Source of the DNA: a virus
Lineage: Duplodnaviria; Caudoviricetes
Strand: one strand, 5' to 3'
Virus record (IMG/VR): IMGVR_UViG_3300035390_000014
Coordinates: 128,001 to 192,000 of that record
DNA length: 64,000 bases
Under the pieces are notes generated by a model, which saw nothing but the letters and a program-made list of their open reading frames with translations, did not search any database and had not been told where the DNA came from. Position 1 is the stretch's first letter. Each line of letters begins with the position of its first letter. This document shows positions 9,473-44,392 of the stretch, one piece after another. A program made the translations under genes and the position numbers.

Positions 9473-9610
9473 TTATAAAAGGTTAAGAACGGAAAGATTA
9501 TACATAAAATAACTCAGGTGGTAGAGTATTTGCCTCAAAAGCAAACTGTCGTTGGTTCAATTCCAACTTTTAACAAAACCTAATCTTTTATATTACTTAA
9601 CCTTTTATAA
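9473..9610 (+). ncRNA. Scaffold RNA Y1 (Y-RNA-like): tRNA-like cargo in D-anticodon-T order, anticodon CAA, acceptor end fused to scaffold
   Basis: 15-bp outer stem ttataaaaggttaag/cttaaccttttataa, AACG/ATATTA loop, inner stem gaaagatta/taatctttt; arms actc/gagt, tttgc-ctCAAaa-gcaaa, gttgg-ttcaatt-ccaac. Confidence 0.85.
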
Positions 9611-15363: not shown

Positions 15364-15446
15364 GCAGAAGTCGGTCAACGGTAGATCACCTGCCTTCCAA
15401 GCAGGCGCTTTAAGCATTGCGGGTTCGATTCCCGTCTTCTGCTCCA
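15364..15446 (+). tRNA. trnG: tRNA-Gly(TCC) with long variable arm
   Basis: gcagaag/cttctgc, U73, CCA, cctgc-ctTCCaa-gcagg; 13-nt variable region cgctttaagcatt. Confidence 0.88.
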
Positions 15447-18152: not shown

Positions 18153-18650
18153 ATGTATGAATGTTATAAATGTGGAAGAGAATTTAGTAAAGCTGAGGGG
18201 TTATCCAAACATGTAAAATCATGTGTTGGTAAAAGGTATTGTAAACAGTGTGGCATAGAAACAAAAAATCCAAAATTTTGCTCATCTAGTTGCGCTGAAA
18301 CTTATAACAATACTCAGTATTTATTAGAAACAAAAAAAGAAGAGGCAGTATCTTATGAACTATCTGCTAAACCTTATTTTGAATTATCAATACATGACAG
18401 AAAAGAAATTTTATGGCTTGAACAAAAGCACAAATGTTTGACTTGTGAATTTGATTTGTATGATCCTATAAATGTACCATATGAAATATATCATGTAGAT
18501 GGTAATGATACTAATAAACAAAGATCTAATGAACAATTGTTATGTTGCAATTGTTATAATATGAAACCAAATTATAGATTCAAAGGTATAAAGCATACTA
18601 AAGAATCTAAAAAAATAAAGAAAAAGATGTTAACAATTATGCCCCTATAG
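18153..18650 (+). CDS. Zn-finger / degenerate HNH protein
   Basis: CYKC..H...C, CKQC...FCSSSC, CLTC...HVDGN..N...N..LLCCNC. Confidence 0.7.
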   Translation: MYECYKCGREFSKAEGLSKHVKSCVGKRYCKQCGIETKNPKFCSSSCAETYNNTQYLLETKKEEAVSYELSAKPYFELSIHDRKEILWLEQKHKCLTCEFDLYDPINVPYEIYHVDGNDTNKQRSNEQLLCCNCYNMKPNYRFKGIKHTKESKKIKKKMLTIMPL

Positions 18651-18715
18651 CTCAGCGAAAAGAGCATGAGGTTTCTACCCTCTGTGCGCAGGTTTGATTC
18701 CTGCTAGGGGTTCCA
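18641..18715 (+). tRNA. trnR: tRNA-Arg(TCT), overlapping the last codons of the upstream ORF
   Basis: gccccta/taggggt, loop TTTCTAC, T arm gcagg-tttgatt-cctgc, CCA. Confidence 0.85.
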
Positions 18716-18936: not shown

Positions 18937-19075
18937 AAGGAGGTCAACATGAAAAAAATGTATTGGAAAGGTAACTGGGCATAGGTAAATAGACCACCCT
19001 AATACAAAGTATAATTTATATTAACGACTAAAATCTAGTTAAAACAAATTATATTTATTATTAGGAGAACTACAA

Positions 19076-19405
19076 ATGACTTTCAAAGAATTAAAAAACA
19101 GTATCAAAAAACAATTAAAAGAAACAGCTAACACTATTCGTATTTTAAAAGCAGCAAGAAAACCTCATGTCTATAATAGCAACCCTGCATTATATGATAA
19201 GTTAGGTGATCTAGATTCACTCAGGTATAGTATAAGACATAAACACATTGCTTATTGCATGTTTTTCAATGGAACTGAATATGGTGATATTGAAAGAAAA
19301 TGTAATGAGAGTCCATACATTGGTAGAATTGATCAGTATAAAAAAGAATGGTCTTATATTGTGGAGGCGAATCAAGATGCAAAAACTGTACGTGATAGTG
19401 CGTAA
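19076..19405 (+). CDS. Hypothetical protein, often paired with PTH2-like genes
   Basis: AGGAG RBS; RHKHIAYCM..G..Y..IE. Confidence 0.6.
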   Translation: MTFKELKNSIKKQLKETANTIRILKAARKPHVYNSNPALYDKLGDLDSLRYSIRHKHIAYCMFFNGTEYGDIERKCNESPYIGRIDQYKKEWSYIVEANQDAKTVRDSA

Positions 19406-19667
19406 GGATCTAAGTCCTTCACAAATAGCTGTTCAAGCAGGTCACGCAGTAGCAGAATATTTAGTTAATGATTCAAAGACTTGGAAAAATGAGATCCTAA
19501 TTTATTTGGGAGTTCCTGGTCTTAGACAGTTACATAGATGGATGATGAAACTTGATAATCAAGATGTTAAATATACTGCATGGCGAGAACCTGATATTAA
19601 TAATGAAGTGACAGCAATAGCAAGCACTGGTTCAAGTGAATTTTTTAAAACATTGAACCTATTATAA
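19377..19667 (+). CDS. Peptidyl-tRNA hydrolase type 2-like protein (start moved from 19248)
   Basis: KLYVIVRKDL...AVQAGHAVAE, EPD...VTAIA; GGAGG before ATG 19377. Confidence 0.75.
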   Translation: MQKLYVIVRKDLSPSQIAVQAGHAVAEYLVNDSKTWKNEILIYLGVPGLRQLHRWMMKLDNQDVKYTAWREPDINNEVTAIASTGSSEFFKTLNLL

Positions 19668-19743
19668 GCCGGTGTAGCTTATTGGGAGAGCCGAGAACTC
19701 TAAATTCTTGATTGAGTAAGTTCGATCCTTACCATCGGCACCA
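19668..19743 (+). tRNA. Amber suppressor tRNA, anticodon CTA
   Basis: gccggtg/catcggc, A73, CCA, D arm gctt/gagc, gagaa-ctCTAaa-ttctt (anticodon 19700-19702), T arm gtaag-ttcgatc-cttac. Confidence 0.88.
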
Positions 19744-19771: not shown

Positions 19772-20407
19772 ATGTATTATACACTTTATAAAACTACCAA
19801 TATATTAAATGGGAAATTTTATATTGGGTGTCATAAAACAAATGATCTCCATGATGATTATATTGGTTCAGGCAAATATTTAACTAATTCTATTAATAAA
19901 TATGGTATAGAAAATTTTATCAAAGAAATAATGCAATTATTTTTTTCATCTGAACAAATGTATGAGATGGAAAGTTTATTAGTTGATGAAAAATTTGTTG
20001 AAAGAAAAGATACTTATAATTTAAAAGTTGGTGGTGAAGGCGGTTTTGATTATATTAATGAAAATGGATTAAAATGTAAAACTCCTTTTATGTCTGATGC
20101 ATTTATTAATGCTAGAGAAAAAGTAATATTAAAAAGAAAAACCGATCTTGAATATGCTAAACAACATTATAAAAAAACAAGAGAAGGTTTAAAAAAATAT
20201 TATAAAACTAATTATAATGCATTTAAAAATCAACAACATACTGAAGAAACAAAAAAGAAAATAGGTTTAAACACCTCTTTTCATCAAAAGGGTAAAAAAA
20301 ATTCTCAGTATGGGACAATGTGGATAACCGATGGTATTAATAATAAAAAAATAAAAAAAGTTTCTATGATTCCAGAAGGTTGGAATAAAGGTAGAAAATT
20401 GAAATAA
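19772..20407 (+). CDS. GIY-YIG homing endonuclease, paralog of 2999-3649
   Basis: YTLYKTTN..NGKFYIG, shared DNA blocks such as aaaagatacttataatttaaaagttggtgg. Confidence 0.88.
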   Translation: MYYTLYKTTNILNGKFYIGCHKTNDLHDDYIGSGKYLTNSINKYGIENFIKEIMQLFFSSEQMYEMESLLVDEKFVERKDTYNLKVGGEGGFDYINENGLKCKTPFMSDAFINAREKVILKRKTDLEYAKQHYKKTREGLKKYYKTNYNAFKNQQHTEETKKKIGLNTSFHQKGKKNSQYGTMWITDGINNKKIKKVSMIPEGWNKGRKLK

Positions 20408-43735: not shown

Positions 43736-44392
43736 ATGAGCTCTTTTATATTAGAAAGCGCTATATTACAGGAAGCTAAGATAGTTAAAGAAACTCCTGG
43801 TAAAGCAATATTTCGTTGTACCATTCAAACTGCGGATGATATTAATGCAAATAAAAGAATGTATCCAAGAATGGTTCTTGAAAATGGTATGCAAAACTGT
43901 GCCCCAAGAATGAGATCAAGAGCATTCTTATCTGAATTAGATCATCCGATTCCTCAAGGTGGAGCGTTTGACCAAATAAGACAAACTACAGTTCAATTAA
44001 AAGAAGTATCTCATATTATTAGAGATTATGAATGGAAAGGTAATCACCTAGTAGCTGAGATGGAAACAACCTCAACTCCAAATGGTGGAATACTTTGTGG
44101 TCTATTAAGAGACAATTCTGGAATTGGATTTTCTATGCGTGGATTAGCAGAGTTAGAAAGACTTCAAGAATATAATATGGTTAAAGGTCCTTTAACTATT
44201 ATTGCATTTGATGCAGTTTCCCAACCTTCACATAAAGCGGCCGTAGTTAACTTTAGTGAAATGCAATTTGAATCTTCAATGTTAATGGAAAGTGTTGGAC
44301 AAATATGTGTAAATGGTAGATGTTTCTTACCAGACTATTTTGATAAATTAGTAGAATCTAGGATAGTTACATTTTTTGATAAATGGGTGTAG
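43736..44392 (+). CDS. Prohead core protease (T4 gp21-like)
   Basis: NANKRMYP, ELDHP, VSH, GFSMRG, FDAV..PS. Confidence 0.92.
   Translation: MSSFILESAILQEAKIVKETPGKAIFRCTIQTADDINANKRMYPRMVLENGMQNCAPRMRSRAFLSELDHPIPQGGAFDQIRQTTVQLKEVSHIIRDYEWKGNHLVAEMETTSTPNGGILCGLLRDNSGIGFSMRGLAELERLQEYNMVKGPLTIIAFDAVSQPSHKAAVVNFSEMQFESSMLMESVGQICVNGRCFLPDYFDKLVESRIVTFFDKWV

What the first reader, a model, noticed from the sequence alone, without database searches (positions are those of the whole stretch)
19377..19743. Amber suppressor tRNA abutting a PTH2-like gene, in a phage that is not recoded
Seen: complete tRNA with CUA anticodon starts at the base after the PTH2-like stop. Long genes here (PolB, portal, ligase) have no in-frame TAG, so code 11 holds. 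A73, a short variable loop and a canonical T loop argue against tRNA-Pyl and a Gln identity; the amino acid is undetermined. Inference: conditional amber read-through, for example to disrupt host termination or extend phage proteins, with a hydrolase to recycle stalled peptidyl-tRNA.
Basis: partly seen in the sequence, partly recalled or inferred. Interest (0 to 1): 0.7.

Follow-up and report, generated by a model that had tools for sequence, protein, structure and literature searches.

The report
Stop-readthrough sensor operon with suppressor tRNA
A large sediment phage that uses the normal genetic code carries a real UAG-reading tRNA at the end of a small conserved operon, and the operon's short leader appears to switch on two upstream genes, one of them a tRNA-hydrolase look-alike, only when that UAG stop is being read through; this gives an otherwise unexplained phage suppressor tRNA a concrete target.

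Summary
A canonical 76-nt tRNA with anticodon CUA (window 19668-19743) starts at the base after the TAA stop of a 96-aa PTH2-fold gene. The 203-kb phage fragment is not recoded: 31 of 278 ORFs end in TAG, and reading TAG as sense gives no gain in coding coverage.

The tRNA is under selection. CUA tRNAs lie just downstream of the PTH2-like gene in 13 of 13 related contigs. Sixteen of 21 stem pairs show compensatory changes, and the anticodon loop is invariant.

It has a strong Shine-Dalgarno and reads MKKMYWKGNWA-UAG-VNRPP-UAA. Leaders with one or two TAGs followed in frame by R(x)PP (RGPP, RDPP, RPP) occur in 12 of 13 informative relatives. In all 10 folded loci the Pro-Pro codons or leader end pair with the Shine-Dalgarno of the next gene.

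Best reading: UAG read-through carries ribosomes onto the stall and anti-SD site, which switches on ORF109 and the PTH2-like gene. I found no other conserved UAG target. The inserted amino acid and the hydrolase's substrate are unknown.

This scan has noted the same design on other phage DNA. I found no paper that describes it.

The parts
18937..18943 (+). Shine-Dalgarno (AAGGAGG) of the leader ORF
   Evidence: Read from the sequence. The same strong SD stands before the leaders of the relatives.
18949..19002 (+). Leader ORF MKKMYWKGNWA-UAG-VNRPP-UAA. The in-frame TAG is at 18982-18984, Arg-Pro-Pro at 18991-18999 and TAA at 19000-19002.
   Evidence: It is the only SD-preceded short ORF in the 203-kb record with a TAG followed by R.?PP, and the TAA-gated and TGA-gated controls found none. 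Homologous leaders occur in L007-L010, L012-L016, L028 and L029.
18998..19065 (+). Hairpin whose outer stem pairs the end of the leader (last Pro codon, TAA and two more bases) with UAUUAGG, which includes the first bases of the next gene's SD
   Evidence: Folding gives z = -3.9 to -4.9. The same pairing of PP codons with the SD appears in all 10 loci folded, built from different sequences. The spacer is 99% identical to L008, while the flanking genes are 76-88% identical.
19063..19067 (+). Shine-Dalgarno (AGGAG) of ORF109, sequestered in the hairpin
19076..19405 (+). ORF109: a conserved 103-124-aa all-helical protein of unknown function that overlaps the start of the PTH2-like gene by 29 nt
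   Evidence: Alignment A4, with invariant R54, H57, Y60, C61, E73 and W92. The model has pLDDT 88. No Pfam or PHROG family and no fold match was found.
19377..19667 (+). 96-aa PTH2-fold protein with no in-frame TAG
   Evidence: Pfam PF01981 E 9e-5; phrog_3668 'hydrolase'; at least 202 metagenomic homologues. Foldseek's top 15 hits are all Pth2 (2zv3, 3erj, 1xty, 1q7s) with TMq 0.73-0.80. No in-frame TAG here or in the relatives.
19668..19743 (+). tRNA with anticodon CUA at 19700-19702, A73, A31-U39 and an encoded CCA

Best explanation
The element is a genuine UAG-decoding (amber-suppressor-type) tRNA. It is the last member of a conserved operon: a UAG-containing leader, an SD-sequestering hairpin, ORF109, a PTH2-fold gene and then tRNA-CUA. 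With no read-through, ribosomes on the leader terminate at UAG (18982-18984), the hairpin keeps the ORF109 Shine-Dalgarno paired, and the two proteins are made poorly. When charged tRNA-CUA reads the UAG, the ribosome goes five codons further onto Arg-Pro-Pro-UAA. That site is a slow or stalling one, and it is also the 5' arm (the anti-SD) of the hairpin. This frees the SD, so ORF109 and the overlapping PTH2-like gene are translated. Output of the PTH2-like protein is thus tied to suppressor activity. Its likely job is either to limit suppression by hydrolysing acylated tRNA-CUA or to clear peptidyl-tRNA produced by read-through. The rest of the genome keeps TAG as an ordinary stop. A host synthetase must charge the tRNA. 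Lys is the best guess (A73, U35, A31-U39), and Gln is the least likely by tRNA similarity. Shown here: the tRNA, the synteny, the in-frame TAG-to-R(x)PP leaders and the PP-codon/SD pairing. Inferred: read-through, stalling, induction, the enzyme's substrate and the amino acid.
For: - **The tRNA is real and selected.** Sixteen of 21 stem pairs show compensatory changes and the loop CUCUAAA is invariant across 12 sequences.
- **Synteny.** A CUA tRNA lies 0-1.6 kb downstream of the PTH2-like gene in 13 of 13 related loci whose PTH2-like proteins are 54-96% identical.
- **The anticodon is kept through replacement.** In L007 the tRNA is only 71% identical while the adjacent gene is 93% identical, so the tRNA was exchanged but CUA was retained.
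- **The leader is conserved.** A strong SD, an ATG, one or two TAGs and then an in-frame R(x)PP (KDPP in L009) occur in the window and in 12 of 13 informative relatives, although the peptides differ. Every gating stop is TAG, although TAA is the commonest stop in these genomes.
- **The leader is unique.** It is the only such ORF in 203 kb, and TAA-gated and TGA-gated controls found none.
- **The hairpin is conserved.** The PP codons or leader end pair with the SD of ORF109 in 10 of 10 loci, z = -2.9 to -5.1. The spacer is 99% identical where the flanking genes are 76-88% identical.
- **The motif is a known arrest motif.** RGPP and RAPP are strong, EF-P-resistant arrest motifs found near the C-termini of small uORFs, and RDPP is partly permissive (PMC12992588; PMC10951233).
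- **The enzyme fold.** The gene has a PTH2 fold.
- **No other target.** No competing UAG target was found.
- **Amino-acid hint.** A31-U39 favours LysRS on CUA tRNAs in E. coli (PMC1483225).
Against: - Nothing is experimental. Expression, charging, read-through and stalling are all unobserved.
- The window's motif is RPP followed directly by the stop, not the canonical R-x-P-P. Stalling there would have to come from Pro-Pro-stop termination.
- The relative G004 keeps ORF109, the PTH2-like gene and tRNA-CUA but has no such leader.
- The PTH2-like gene has its own GGAGG upstream, so it may be translated without ORF109.
- TAG ends 11% of ORFs here and 22% in G004, so an efficient suppressor should carry a cost.
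- The Lys that precedes the AAQ motif in archaeal Pth2 is Gln here, so hydrolase activity is not assured.
- The record is only about 65% complete.
Confidence: 0.58

Rival explanations
1. This is an ordinary accessory suppressor tRNA. It is one of about 25 phage tRNAs carried to make translation independent of the host. It causes low-level, untargeted UAG read-through, or buffers amber mutations. It sits next to the PTH2-like gene only because gene order is conserved in this lineage, and the leader is an unrelated small ORF or an RNA structure.
For: CUA tRNAs occur in cultured standard-code phages that lack any such neighbour: Serratia BF, Rhizobium RHph_I1_18 and Aeromonas Akh-2. XacN1's authors found no target (PMC5852040). 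In XacN1, Xoo-sp13 and RAS14 the PTH2-like domain and the CUA tRNA are far apart. The whole tRNA region is syntenic among the relatives.
Against: This does not explain why every gating stop in the leaders is TAG. It does not explain why R(x)PP stays in frame behind the TAG across very different leader peptides. It does not explain why the PP codons always pair with the next gene's SD.
Confidence: 0.17
2. The leader senses release-factor-1 capacity or general termination efficiency, for example RF1 being depleted or inhibited during infection, rather than the phage tRNA itself. The tRNA-CUA is then an output or a helper that clears ribosomes waiting at UAG.
For: The architecture reports any UAG read-through, whatever its cause. 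The phage also carries a tmRNA and an ArfB-like GGQ protein, so it has a rescue theme. No RF1/RF2-type factor was found in the fragment.
Against: The strict co-location with a CUA tRNA in 13 of 13 loci points to the tRNA as the partner. Double TAGs in many leaders need efficient decoding, which near-cognate read-through seldom gives.
Confidence: 0.12
3. This is a stage on the way to TAG recoding, following the Borges et al. model: low GC makes TAG rare, a suppressor tRNA is then acquired, and in-frame TAGs later accumulate in late genes.
For: The genome is 30% GC, TAA is the dominant stop and the suppressor sits in a standard-code genome (preprint 10.1101/2021.08.26.457843).
Against: TAG is not depleted in this lineage. 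It ends 22% of ORFs in G004, more than TGA does. No structural gene carries an in-frame TAG. The tRNA is old and conserved across diverged relatives that show no recoding.
Confidence: 0.08
4. The tRNA is a non-functional relic, or the anticodon is an assembly error.
For: None beyond the oddity of a suppressor in a standard-code genome.
Against: The stems covary and the anticodon loop is invariant. An independent assembly gives identical sequence. Thirteen relatives carry CUA at this place.
Confidence: 0.02

Closest known systems
Suppressor (CUA) tRNAs of cultured standard-code jumbo phages, e.g. Xanthomonas phage XacN1 (PMC5852040)
   Same: A CUA tRNA sits in a code-11 jumbo phage that has tRNAs for all 20 amino acids, a tmRNA nearby and a PTH2-like domain protein. 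In-silico read-through of ordinary TAG stops yields nothing in either phage.
   Different: Here the tRNA abuts the PTH2-like gene, and a conserved UAG-bearing leader provides a target. In XacN1 the two genes are far apart, and I saw no such leader in the roughly 5 kb I held around each.
RAPP/RGPP-type ribosome arrest leaders (ApdA, ApdP, ApcA; SecM-type RAGP) that unmask a downstream Shine-Dalgarno (PMC10951233, PMC12992588, PMC7897499)
   Same: A small upstream ORF carries R-x-P-P close to its C-terminus (RGPP or RDPP in the relatives), just before a co-oriented gene whose SD lies in a hairpin.
   Different: The arrest motif is reached only after one or two in-frame UAGs. I saw no secretion signal or membrane link. 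The regulated genes are tRNA-related. The window's own version is RPP followed directly by the stop.
prfB (RF2) autoregulation through an in-frame UGA (established knowledge, not tested here)
   Same: The decoding outcome at an early in-frame stop codon sets the expression of a factor that acts at the termination or rescue step of translation.
   Different: prfB uses a +1 frameshift and senses its own product. Here the mechanism is read-through by a dedicated tRNA, and the sensor sits in a separate leader.
Stop-codon-recoded phages (TAG read as Gln, code 15: crAss-like, Lak; Borges et al. preprint 10.1101/2021.08.26.457843)
   Same: The phage encodes a CUA tRNA. Lak phages also carry a homologue of this PTH2-like protein.
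   Different: There is no genome-wide in-frame TAG, and TAG remains a normal stop. The tRNA is least similar to the phage's own tRNA-Gln genes.
Archaeal/eukaryotic peptidyl-tRNA hydrolase 2 (Pfam PF01981; PDB 1xty, 2zv3, 3erj, 1q7s)
   Same: Same fold (TMq 0.73-0.80). It shares the VRxDL...AxQxxHA motif and an acidic residue in the ExD loop.
   Different: It is only 96 aa and 15-23% identical, and it sits at the Pfam threshold. The Lys before the AAQ motif is Gln. It is paired with an overlapping helical ORF of unknown function.

Membership tests
tRNA (Rfam RF00005) | A cloverleaf that scores above the family's gathering threshold | tested here: met
   51.7 bits against 29. ARAGORN draws a cloverleaf with 7/4/5-6/5-bp stems. 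Sixteen of 21 pairs covary.
Amber suppressor tRNA | Anticodon CUA in a normal 7-nt loop with U33 and a purine at 37 | tested here: met
   The loop C32-U33-C34-U35-A36-A37-A38 is invariant in 12 sequences.
Amber suppressor tRNA | It is aminoacylated and inserts an amino acid at UAG in vivo | not testable with these tools
   No Lys/Asp/Asn-, Gln/Glu- or Tyr/Trp-type synthetase was found in the 203-kb fragment. The only indirect support is the conserved in-frame coding signal behind the leader TAGs.
tRNA-Pyl | One base between the acceptor and D stems, a small D loop without GG, a 3-nt variable loop and a non-canonical T loop (feature list from memory) | tested here: not met
   Two bases (U8, A9), a 7-nt D loop containing GGG, a 5-6 nt variable loop and the T loop TTCGATC. 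'Pyl' is only ARAGORN's label for the anticodon CUA.
Pth2 peptidyl-tRNA hydrolase (PF01981) | Sequence match at the curated threshold | tested here: inconclusive
   23.1 bits against a cut-off of 23, covering profile positions 2-81 of 115. The family profile against the PDB gives E 5e-4 to a Pth2 chain. Many homologues carry a precomputed PF01981 hit.
Pth2 peptidyl-tRNA hydrolase (PF01981) | Pth2 fold | tested here: met
   pLDDT 93.4. The top 15 Foldseek hits are all Pth2-family structures.
Pth2 peptidyl-tRNA hydrolase (PF01981) | Active-site Lys before the AAQ motif, and a catalytic Asp (their catalytic roles recalled from memory of the S. solfataricus work) | tested here: inconclusive
   The Lys position aligns with Gln16 here, and with Gln, Tyr or Glu across the family. 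E71, P72 and D73 are invariant near the Asp position. I made no residue-level structural superposition.
RAPP-like arrest-peptide leaders | R-[A/G/D/S]-P-P near the C-terminus of a small uORF | tested here: inconclusive
   The relatives have RGPP (L012, L013/14, L028, L029) or RDPP (L010, L015/16). L009 has KDPP. The window, L007 and L008 have RPP followed directly by the stop.
RAPP-like arrest-peptide leaders | The downstream gene's SD is sequestered by a structure that a ribosome at the arrest site would open | tested here: met
   The PP codons or leader end pair with the SD in 10 of 10 loci.
RAPP-like arrest-peptide leaders | Demonstrated elongation or termination arrest | not testable with these tools
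   This needs toeprinting or an in-vitro PURE translation assay.
Stop-codon-recoded (code 15) phage | In-frame TAGs in many genes, and higher coding density when TAG is read as sense | tested here: not met
   Coverage is 0.903 under code 11 and 0.902 with TAG as sense here, and 0.910 against 0.901 in G004. Every long in-frame extension behind a TAG is a separate gene with its own start codon.

The most novel reading that the evidence does not exclude
The operon is a self-monitoring suppression circuit. ORF109 and the PTH2-like protein form a dedicated negative-feedback enzyme that de-acylates or otherwise disables the phage's own tRNA-CUA. The leader measures UAG read-through and sets it to a chosen level, which gives standard-code phages a controllable 'stop-codon read-through state' during infection.
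Probability: 0.25. Interest if true: 0.9.

Novelty: new variant of a known kind. Interest (0 to 1): 0.78.

Why it matters
Suppressor tRNAs have been annotated in many standard-code phages without any known target; the XacN1 authors, for example, found none. A conserved leader that can be translated to its stall and anti-SD site only by reading UAG would be the first natural target for these tRNAs. It would also be a natural sensor of suppressor-tRNA activity, which extends arrest-peptide regulation to a new input. The parts are small and portable (a 17-codon leader, a roughly 70-nt hairpin and a tRNA), so the model is directly testable in E. coli or in cell-free translation. It could also serve as a read-out for amber suppression. 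Finally, it raises the question of what a Pth2-fold enzyme does to a suppressor tRNA or to its products.

Tried and rejected
- **Protease read-through fusion.** I considered a TAG read-through fusion of the head protease (43736-44392) with the in-frame next gene. I rejected it because 8 of 9 relatives end the protease with TAA.
- **Programmed read-through elsewhere.** All seven long in-frame extensions after TAG start a separate gene 1-4 codons later, often through TAGGAG, which is stop plus SD.
  - tblastn across every TAG site against relative G004 gave only antisense or out-of-frame artefacts. It also found the JAB/E1-like gene pair, which has TAG at the same junction in both genomes.
  - Orthologue stop codons are not conserved.
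  - There is no tandem-stop enrichment after TAG.
- **Parent isoacceptor of the tRNA.** Pairwise identity and a FastTree of 89 tRNAs were uninformative; Gln is the least similar. blastn against the E. coli genomes found no match.
- **Searches of viral contigs.** The exact tRNA pattern and the PTH2 peptide patterns found nothing. The loose first look for PF01981 in the window's own genome missed the borderline gene.
- **ORF109.** It has no Pfam or PHROG family, no Foldseek match and only generic helical VIA matches with Z of 6.4 or less, and no usable Atlas hit.
- **Complex prediction on ORF109 with the PTH2-like protein.** No verdict.
- **Promoter and terminator scan.** Nothing above the shuffled controls, and no terminator between the gene and the tRNA.
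- **RNA evidence.** No RNA holder is listed among the public runs.
- **Leader motif in distant phages.** A search of the roughly 3-5 kb loci I held from XacN1, Xoo-sp13, RAS14, Lak-B5, phiAS5, Serratia BF, RHph_I1_18 and Akh-2 found nothing convincing.
- **In-frame TAG inside the PTH2-like gene.** Earlier notes report this in other genomes. It is absent here and in all relatives I examined.

Full report
**1. The observation**

ARAGORN finds 11 tRNAs in the window. The last one, at 19668-19743 (+), has anticodon CUA. Rfam's tRNA model scores it 51.7 bits against a threshold of 29.

The sequence shows the ORF 19377-19667 ending in TAA at 19665-19667, so the tRNA starts at the next base. The cloverleaf is ordinary:
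- a 7-bp acceptor stem with G1-C72, and A73;
- U8 and A9 between the acceptor and D stems;
- a 4-bp D stem and a 7-nt D loop containing GGG;
- the anticodon loop CUCUAAA;
- a 5-6 nt variable loop;
- the T loop TTCGATC and an encoded CCA.

This is not the tRNA-Pyl architecture. 'Pyl' is only the program's label for the anticodon CUA.

**2. The genome**

The window is bases 128001-192000 of a single 202,719-bp contig with 30% GC. It is an IMG/VR virus record, linear, which CheckV rates about 65% complete. Its genes include a family-B DNA polymerase, a DnaB-type helicase, a portal protein, a T4-type major head protein, a head protease and an NAD-dependent ligase.

It holds 26 tRNA calls that cover all 20 amino acids, plus a tmRNA, all on one strand between 106 and 148 kb. 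It also has a 130-aa ArfB-like protein with a GGQ motif. I found no RF1/RF2-type factor, no bacterial Pth, and no Lys/Asp/Asn-, Gln/Glu- or Tyr/Trp-type synthetase. Public runs that hold this DNA are sediment, marine-sediment and vent metagenomes.

**3. The genome is not recoded**

Greedy ORF coverage is 90.3% under code 11 and 90.2% with TAG read as sense. Of 278 ORFs, 185 end in TAA, 62 in TGA and 31 in TAG. Extension lengths and tandem stops behind TAG do not differ from those behind TAA or TGA. Every long in-frame extension behind a TAG is a separate gene that starts 1-4 codons later, often through TAGGAG, which is stop plus SD.

A 244,552-bp relative, G004, carries the same tRNA. It has 91.0% coverage under code 11 against 90.1% with TAG as sense, and it ends 69 of 320 ORFs (22%) in TAG. 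TAG is therefore not even depleted in this lineage.

Among 79 orthologue pairs between the two genomes, TAG/TAG pairs number 2 against 1.8 expected. Searching across every TAG site found no real frame in which a TAG aligns with a sense codon.

**4. The tRNA is under selection**

- The CTA anticodon is present, with no differences, in an independent sediment assembly.
- Homologues of the 96-aa neighbouring protein are numerous in metagenomes.
- In all 13 related loci I fetched (54-96% protein identity), a CUA tRNA lies just downstream. It abuts the gene in five loci, follows one small ORF in seven, and follows two ORFs in one.
- An alignment of 12 CUA tRNAs shows compensatory changes in 16 of 21 stem pairs and an invariant anticodon loop.
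- In L007 the flanking gene is 93% identical in DNA but the tRNA only 71%. The tRNA has been exchanged while the anticodon CUA was kept.
- With the anticodon masked, the nearest sequences to this tRNA are other phages' CUA tRNAs (Serratia BF, Rhizobium RHph_I1_18), not its own genome's tRNAs.

**5. Which amino acid**

I could not identify a parent isoacceptor; the phage tRNA-Gln genes are the least similar. A73, U35 and A31-U39 are the features that favour LysRS over GlnRS on CUA tRNAs in E. coli (PMC1483225). Two relatives have U73. Lys is a guess, not a result.

**6. The neighbouring gene**

Pfam PTH2 matches at the threshold (23.1 bits against 23). The AlphaFold model is confident (pLDDT 93.4). 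Its top 15 PDB matches are all Pth2 structures, with TMq 0.73-0.80 and 15-23% identity.

The family keeps R9, D11, Q20, H23, W36, N38, E71, P72, D73 and T79. The Lys that precedes the AAQ motif in archaeal Pth2 aligns with Gln16. I therefore call it PTH2-fold and leave its activity open.

An overlapping upstream ORF (19076-19405, 109 aa) is conserved with it in every locus. It is all-helical and matches no known family or fold.

By tblastn, the PTH2-like domain occurs elsewhere only in tRNA-rich huge phages. I checked five of these. Four also carry a CUA tRNA: XacN1, Xoo-sp13, RAS14 and Lak-B5. In the three whose flanks I could read (XacN1, Xoo-sp13, RAS14) no tRNA gene lies beside the domain gene. 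The search pattern found none in phiAS5.

**7.

Notes from this scan on other genomes describe CUA tRNA/Pth2-like pairs gated by in-frame TAGs. I tested that idea here.

The PTH2-like ORF has no in-frame TAG in the window or in any relative. However, 127 nt upstream of ORF109 lies a short ORF with a strong SD at 18949-19002: MKKMYWKGNWA-TAG-VNRPP-TAA. It is the only SD-preceded short ORF in the 203 kb with a TAG followed by R.?PP, and TAA-gated and TGA-gated controls give none.

Homologous positions in the relatives carry leaders with quite different peptides but the same grammar. Each has one or two TAGs followed in frame by RPP-stop (L007, L008), RDPP (L010, L015/16), RGPP (L012, L013/14, L028, L029) or KDPP (L009). 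Every gating stop is TAG. One relative, G004, lacks the leader.

**8. The hairpin**

In the window, a hairpin at 18998-19065 pairs the last Pro codon, the TAA and two more bases with UAUUAGG, which is the start of ORF109's SD. The fold has z = -3.9 to -4.9.

In all 10 loci folded, the Pro-Pro codons (CCNCCN) pair with the GGAG(G) of the next gene, although the stems between them differ in sequence. The non-coding spacer is 99% identical between the window and L008, where the flanking genes are 76-88% identical. No terminator-like U tract follows the hairpin.

**9. The mechanism I propose**

Termination at the leader UAG leaves the hairpin closed. Read-through by charged tRNA-CUA brings the ribosome onto R(x)PP, which lies on the anti-SD arm, and this frees the SD of ORF109. 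The PTH2-like gene overlaps the end of ORF109 by 29 nt, so it may be translated by coupling.

RGPP and RAPP are strong, EF-P-resistant arrest motifs typical of small regulatory uORFs, and RDPP is partly permissive (PMC12992588; PMC10951233). The window's RPP-stop would have to rely on slow termination after Pro-Pro; that point comes from my own knowledge and was not tested.

Synthesis of ORF109 and the PTH2-like protein would then report that suppression is active. Whether the proteins damp suppression or clean up after it cannot be decided here.

**10. Comparison with what is known**

Suppressor tRNAs in standard-code jumbo phages are published. XacN1 has two CUA tRNAs and no target was found. 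Atu_ph07 has a UCA suppressor and two Pth genes.

The Borges et al. model of suppressor acquisition before recoding fits poorly, because TAG is common in this lineage.

Arrest-peptide leaders that unmask a Shine-Dalgarno are a known kind, and so is stop-codon sensing in prfB. A leader that reaches its arrest site only through the operon's own suppressor tRNA was not found in the papers I searched. The same design has been noted by this scan on other phage DNA, so this window adds a member in which the hydrolase gene itself is not gated.

**11. Verdict**

The feature is a new variant of a known kind, namely leader-peptide translational sensors combined with phage suppressor tRNAs. Everything beyond the comparative sequence evidence is inference.

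Noticed in passing
window 18153-18650 with tRNA-Arg 18641-18715; also G000:C1:115804-116568 with tRNA-Leu(UAG) at 116559: Two ORFs run 10 nt into the next tRNA gene and use the tRNA's own U8-A9-G10 as their TAG stop. If RNase P cuts at the tRNA's 5' end, these mRNAs would lose their stop codon. That may relate to the phage's tmRNA and ArfB-like gene.
   Followed up: no
window 19772-20407: A GIY-YIG (Seg-like) homing endonuclease gene lies directly behind the tRNA-CUA. It is about 71% identical in DNA to genes of T4-like Klebsiella and Escherichia phages, and it is absent at this place in the close relatives L007 and L008, so it looks like a recent mobile insertion.
   Followed up: partly
window 15364-15446 (Gly, 83 nt) and 2894-2980 (His, 87 nt); G000:C1:124858-124949 (Lys, 92 nt) and 126695-126783 (Met, 89 nt): Several tRNAs that normally have short variable loops carry long variable regions of 13-20 nt here. 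The cause is unknown.
   Followed up: no
window 9503-9575: ARAGORN's 73-nt 'tRNA-Leu(CAA)' has no long variable arm and no CCA end. It lies in the array that earlier notes of this scan read as Y-RNA-like tRNA mimics, so it is probably not a decoding tRNA.
   Followed up: no
G000:C1:114299-114691 (L017:1438-1830) and G000:C1:109075-109464: A 130-aa ArfB-like protein with a GGQ motif (RF-1 domain, 68 bits), and a tmRNA with tag ADNFADDYALAIAA. Together they give the phage a ribosome-rescue kit. In several relatives the tmRNA lies 0.7-1.6 kb behind the tRNA-CUA.
   Followed up: partly
L007:3507-3582 compared with window 19668-19743: The tRNA-CUA of L007 is only 71% identical to the window's, although the adjacent PTH2-like gene is 93% identical. 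L008 shows the reverse (tRNA 92%, gene 79%). The tRNA cassette seems to be exchanged between relatives while the anticodon is kept.
   Followed up: partly
G000:C1:9471-10520 and the next gene downstream on the minus strand: A JAB/MPN-type gene ends in TAG and is in frame with the following E1-like (GxGxxG) gene, both here and in relative G004. The TAG is part of TAGGAG (stop plus SD), so I read them as two genes, but read-through would fuse them.
   Followed up: partly
L003:2496-2570 (Aeromonas phage Akh-2): This T5-like phage's Sup-CUA tRNA has G3:U70 and A73, the alanine identity signature. Different phage suppressor tRNAs may therefore insert different amino acids.
   Followed up: no
L027 (G004:C1:177010-180300): Relative G004 keeps ORF109, the PTH2-like gene and the tRNA-CUA, but a tRNA-Arg(ACG) sits where the leader should be and no TAG/R(x)PP leader is present. 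G004 also uses TAG for 22% of its stops.
   Followed up: partly
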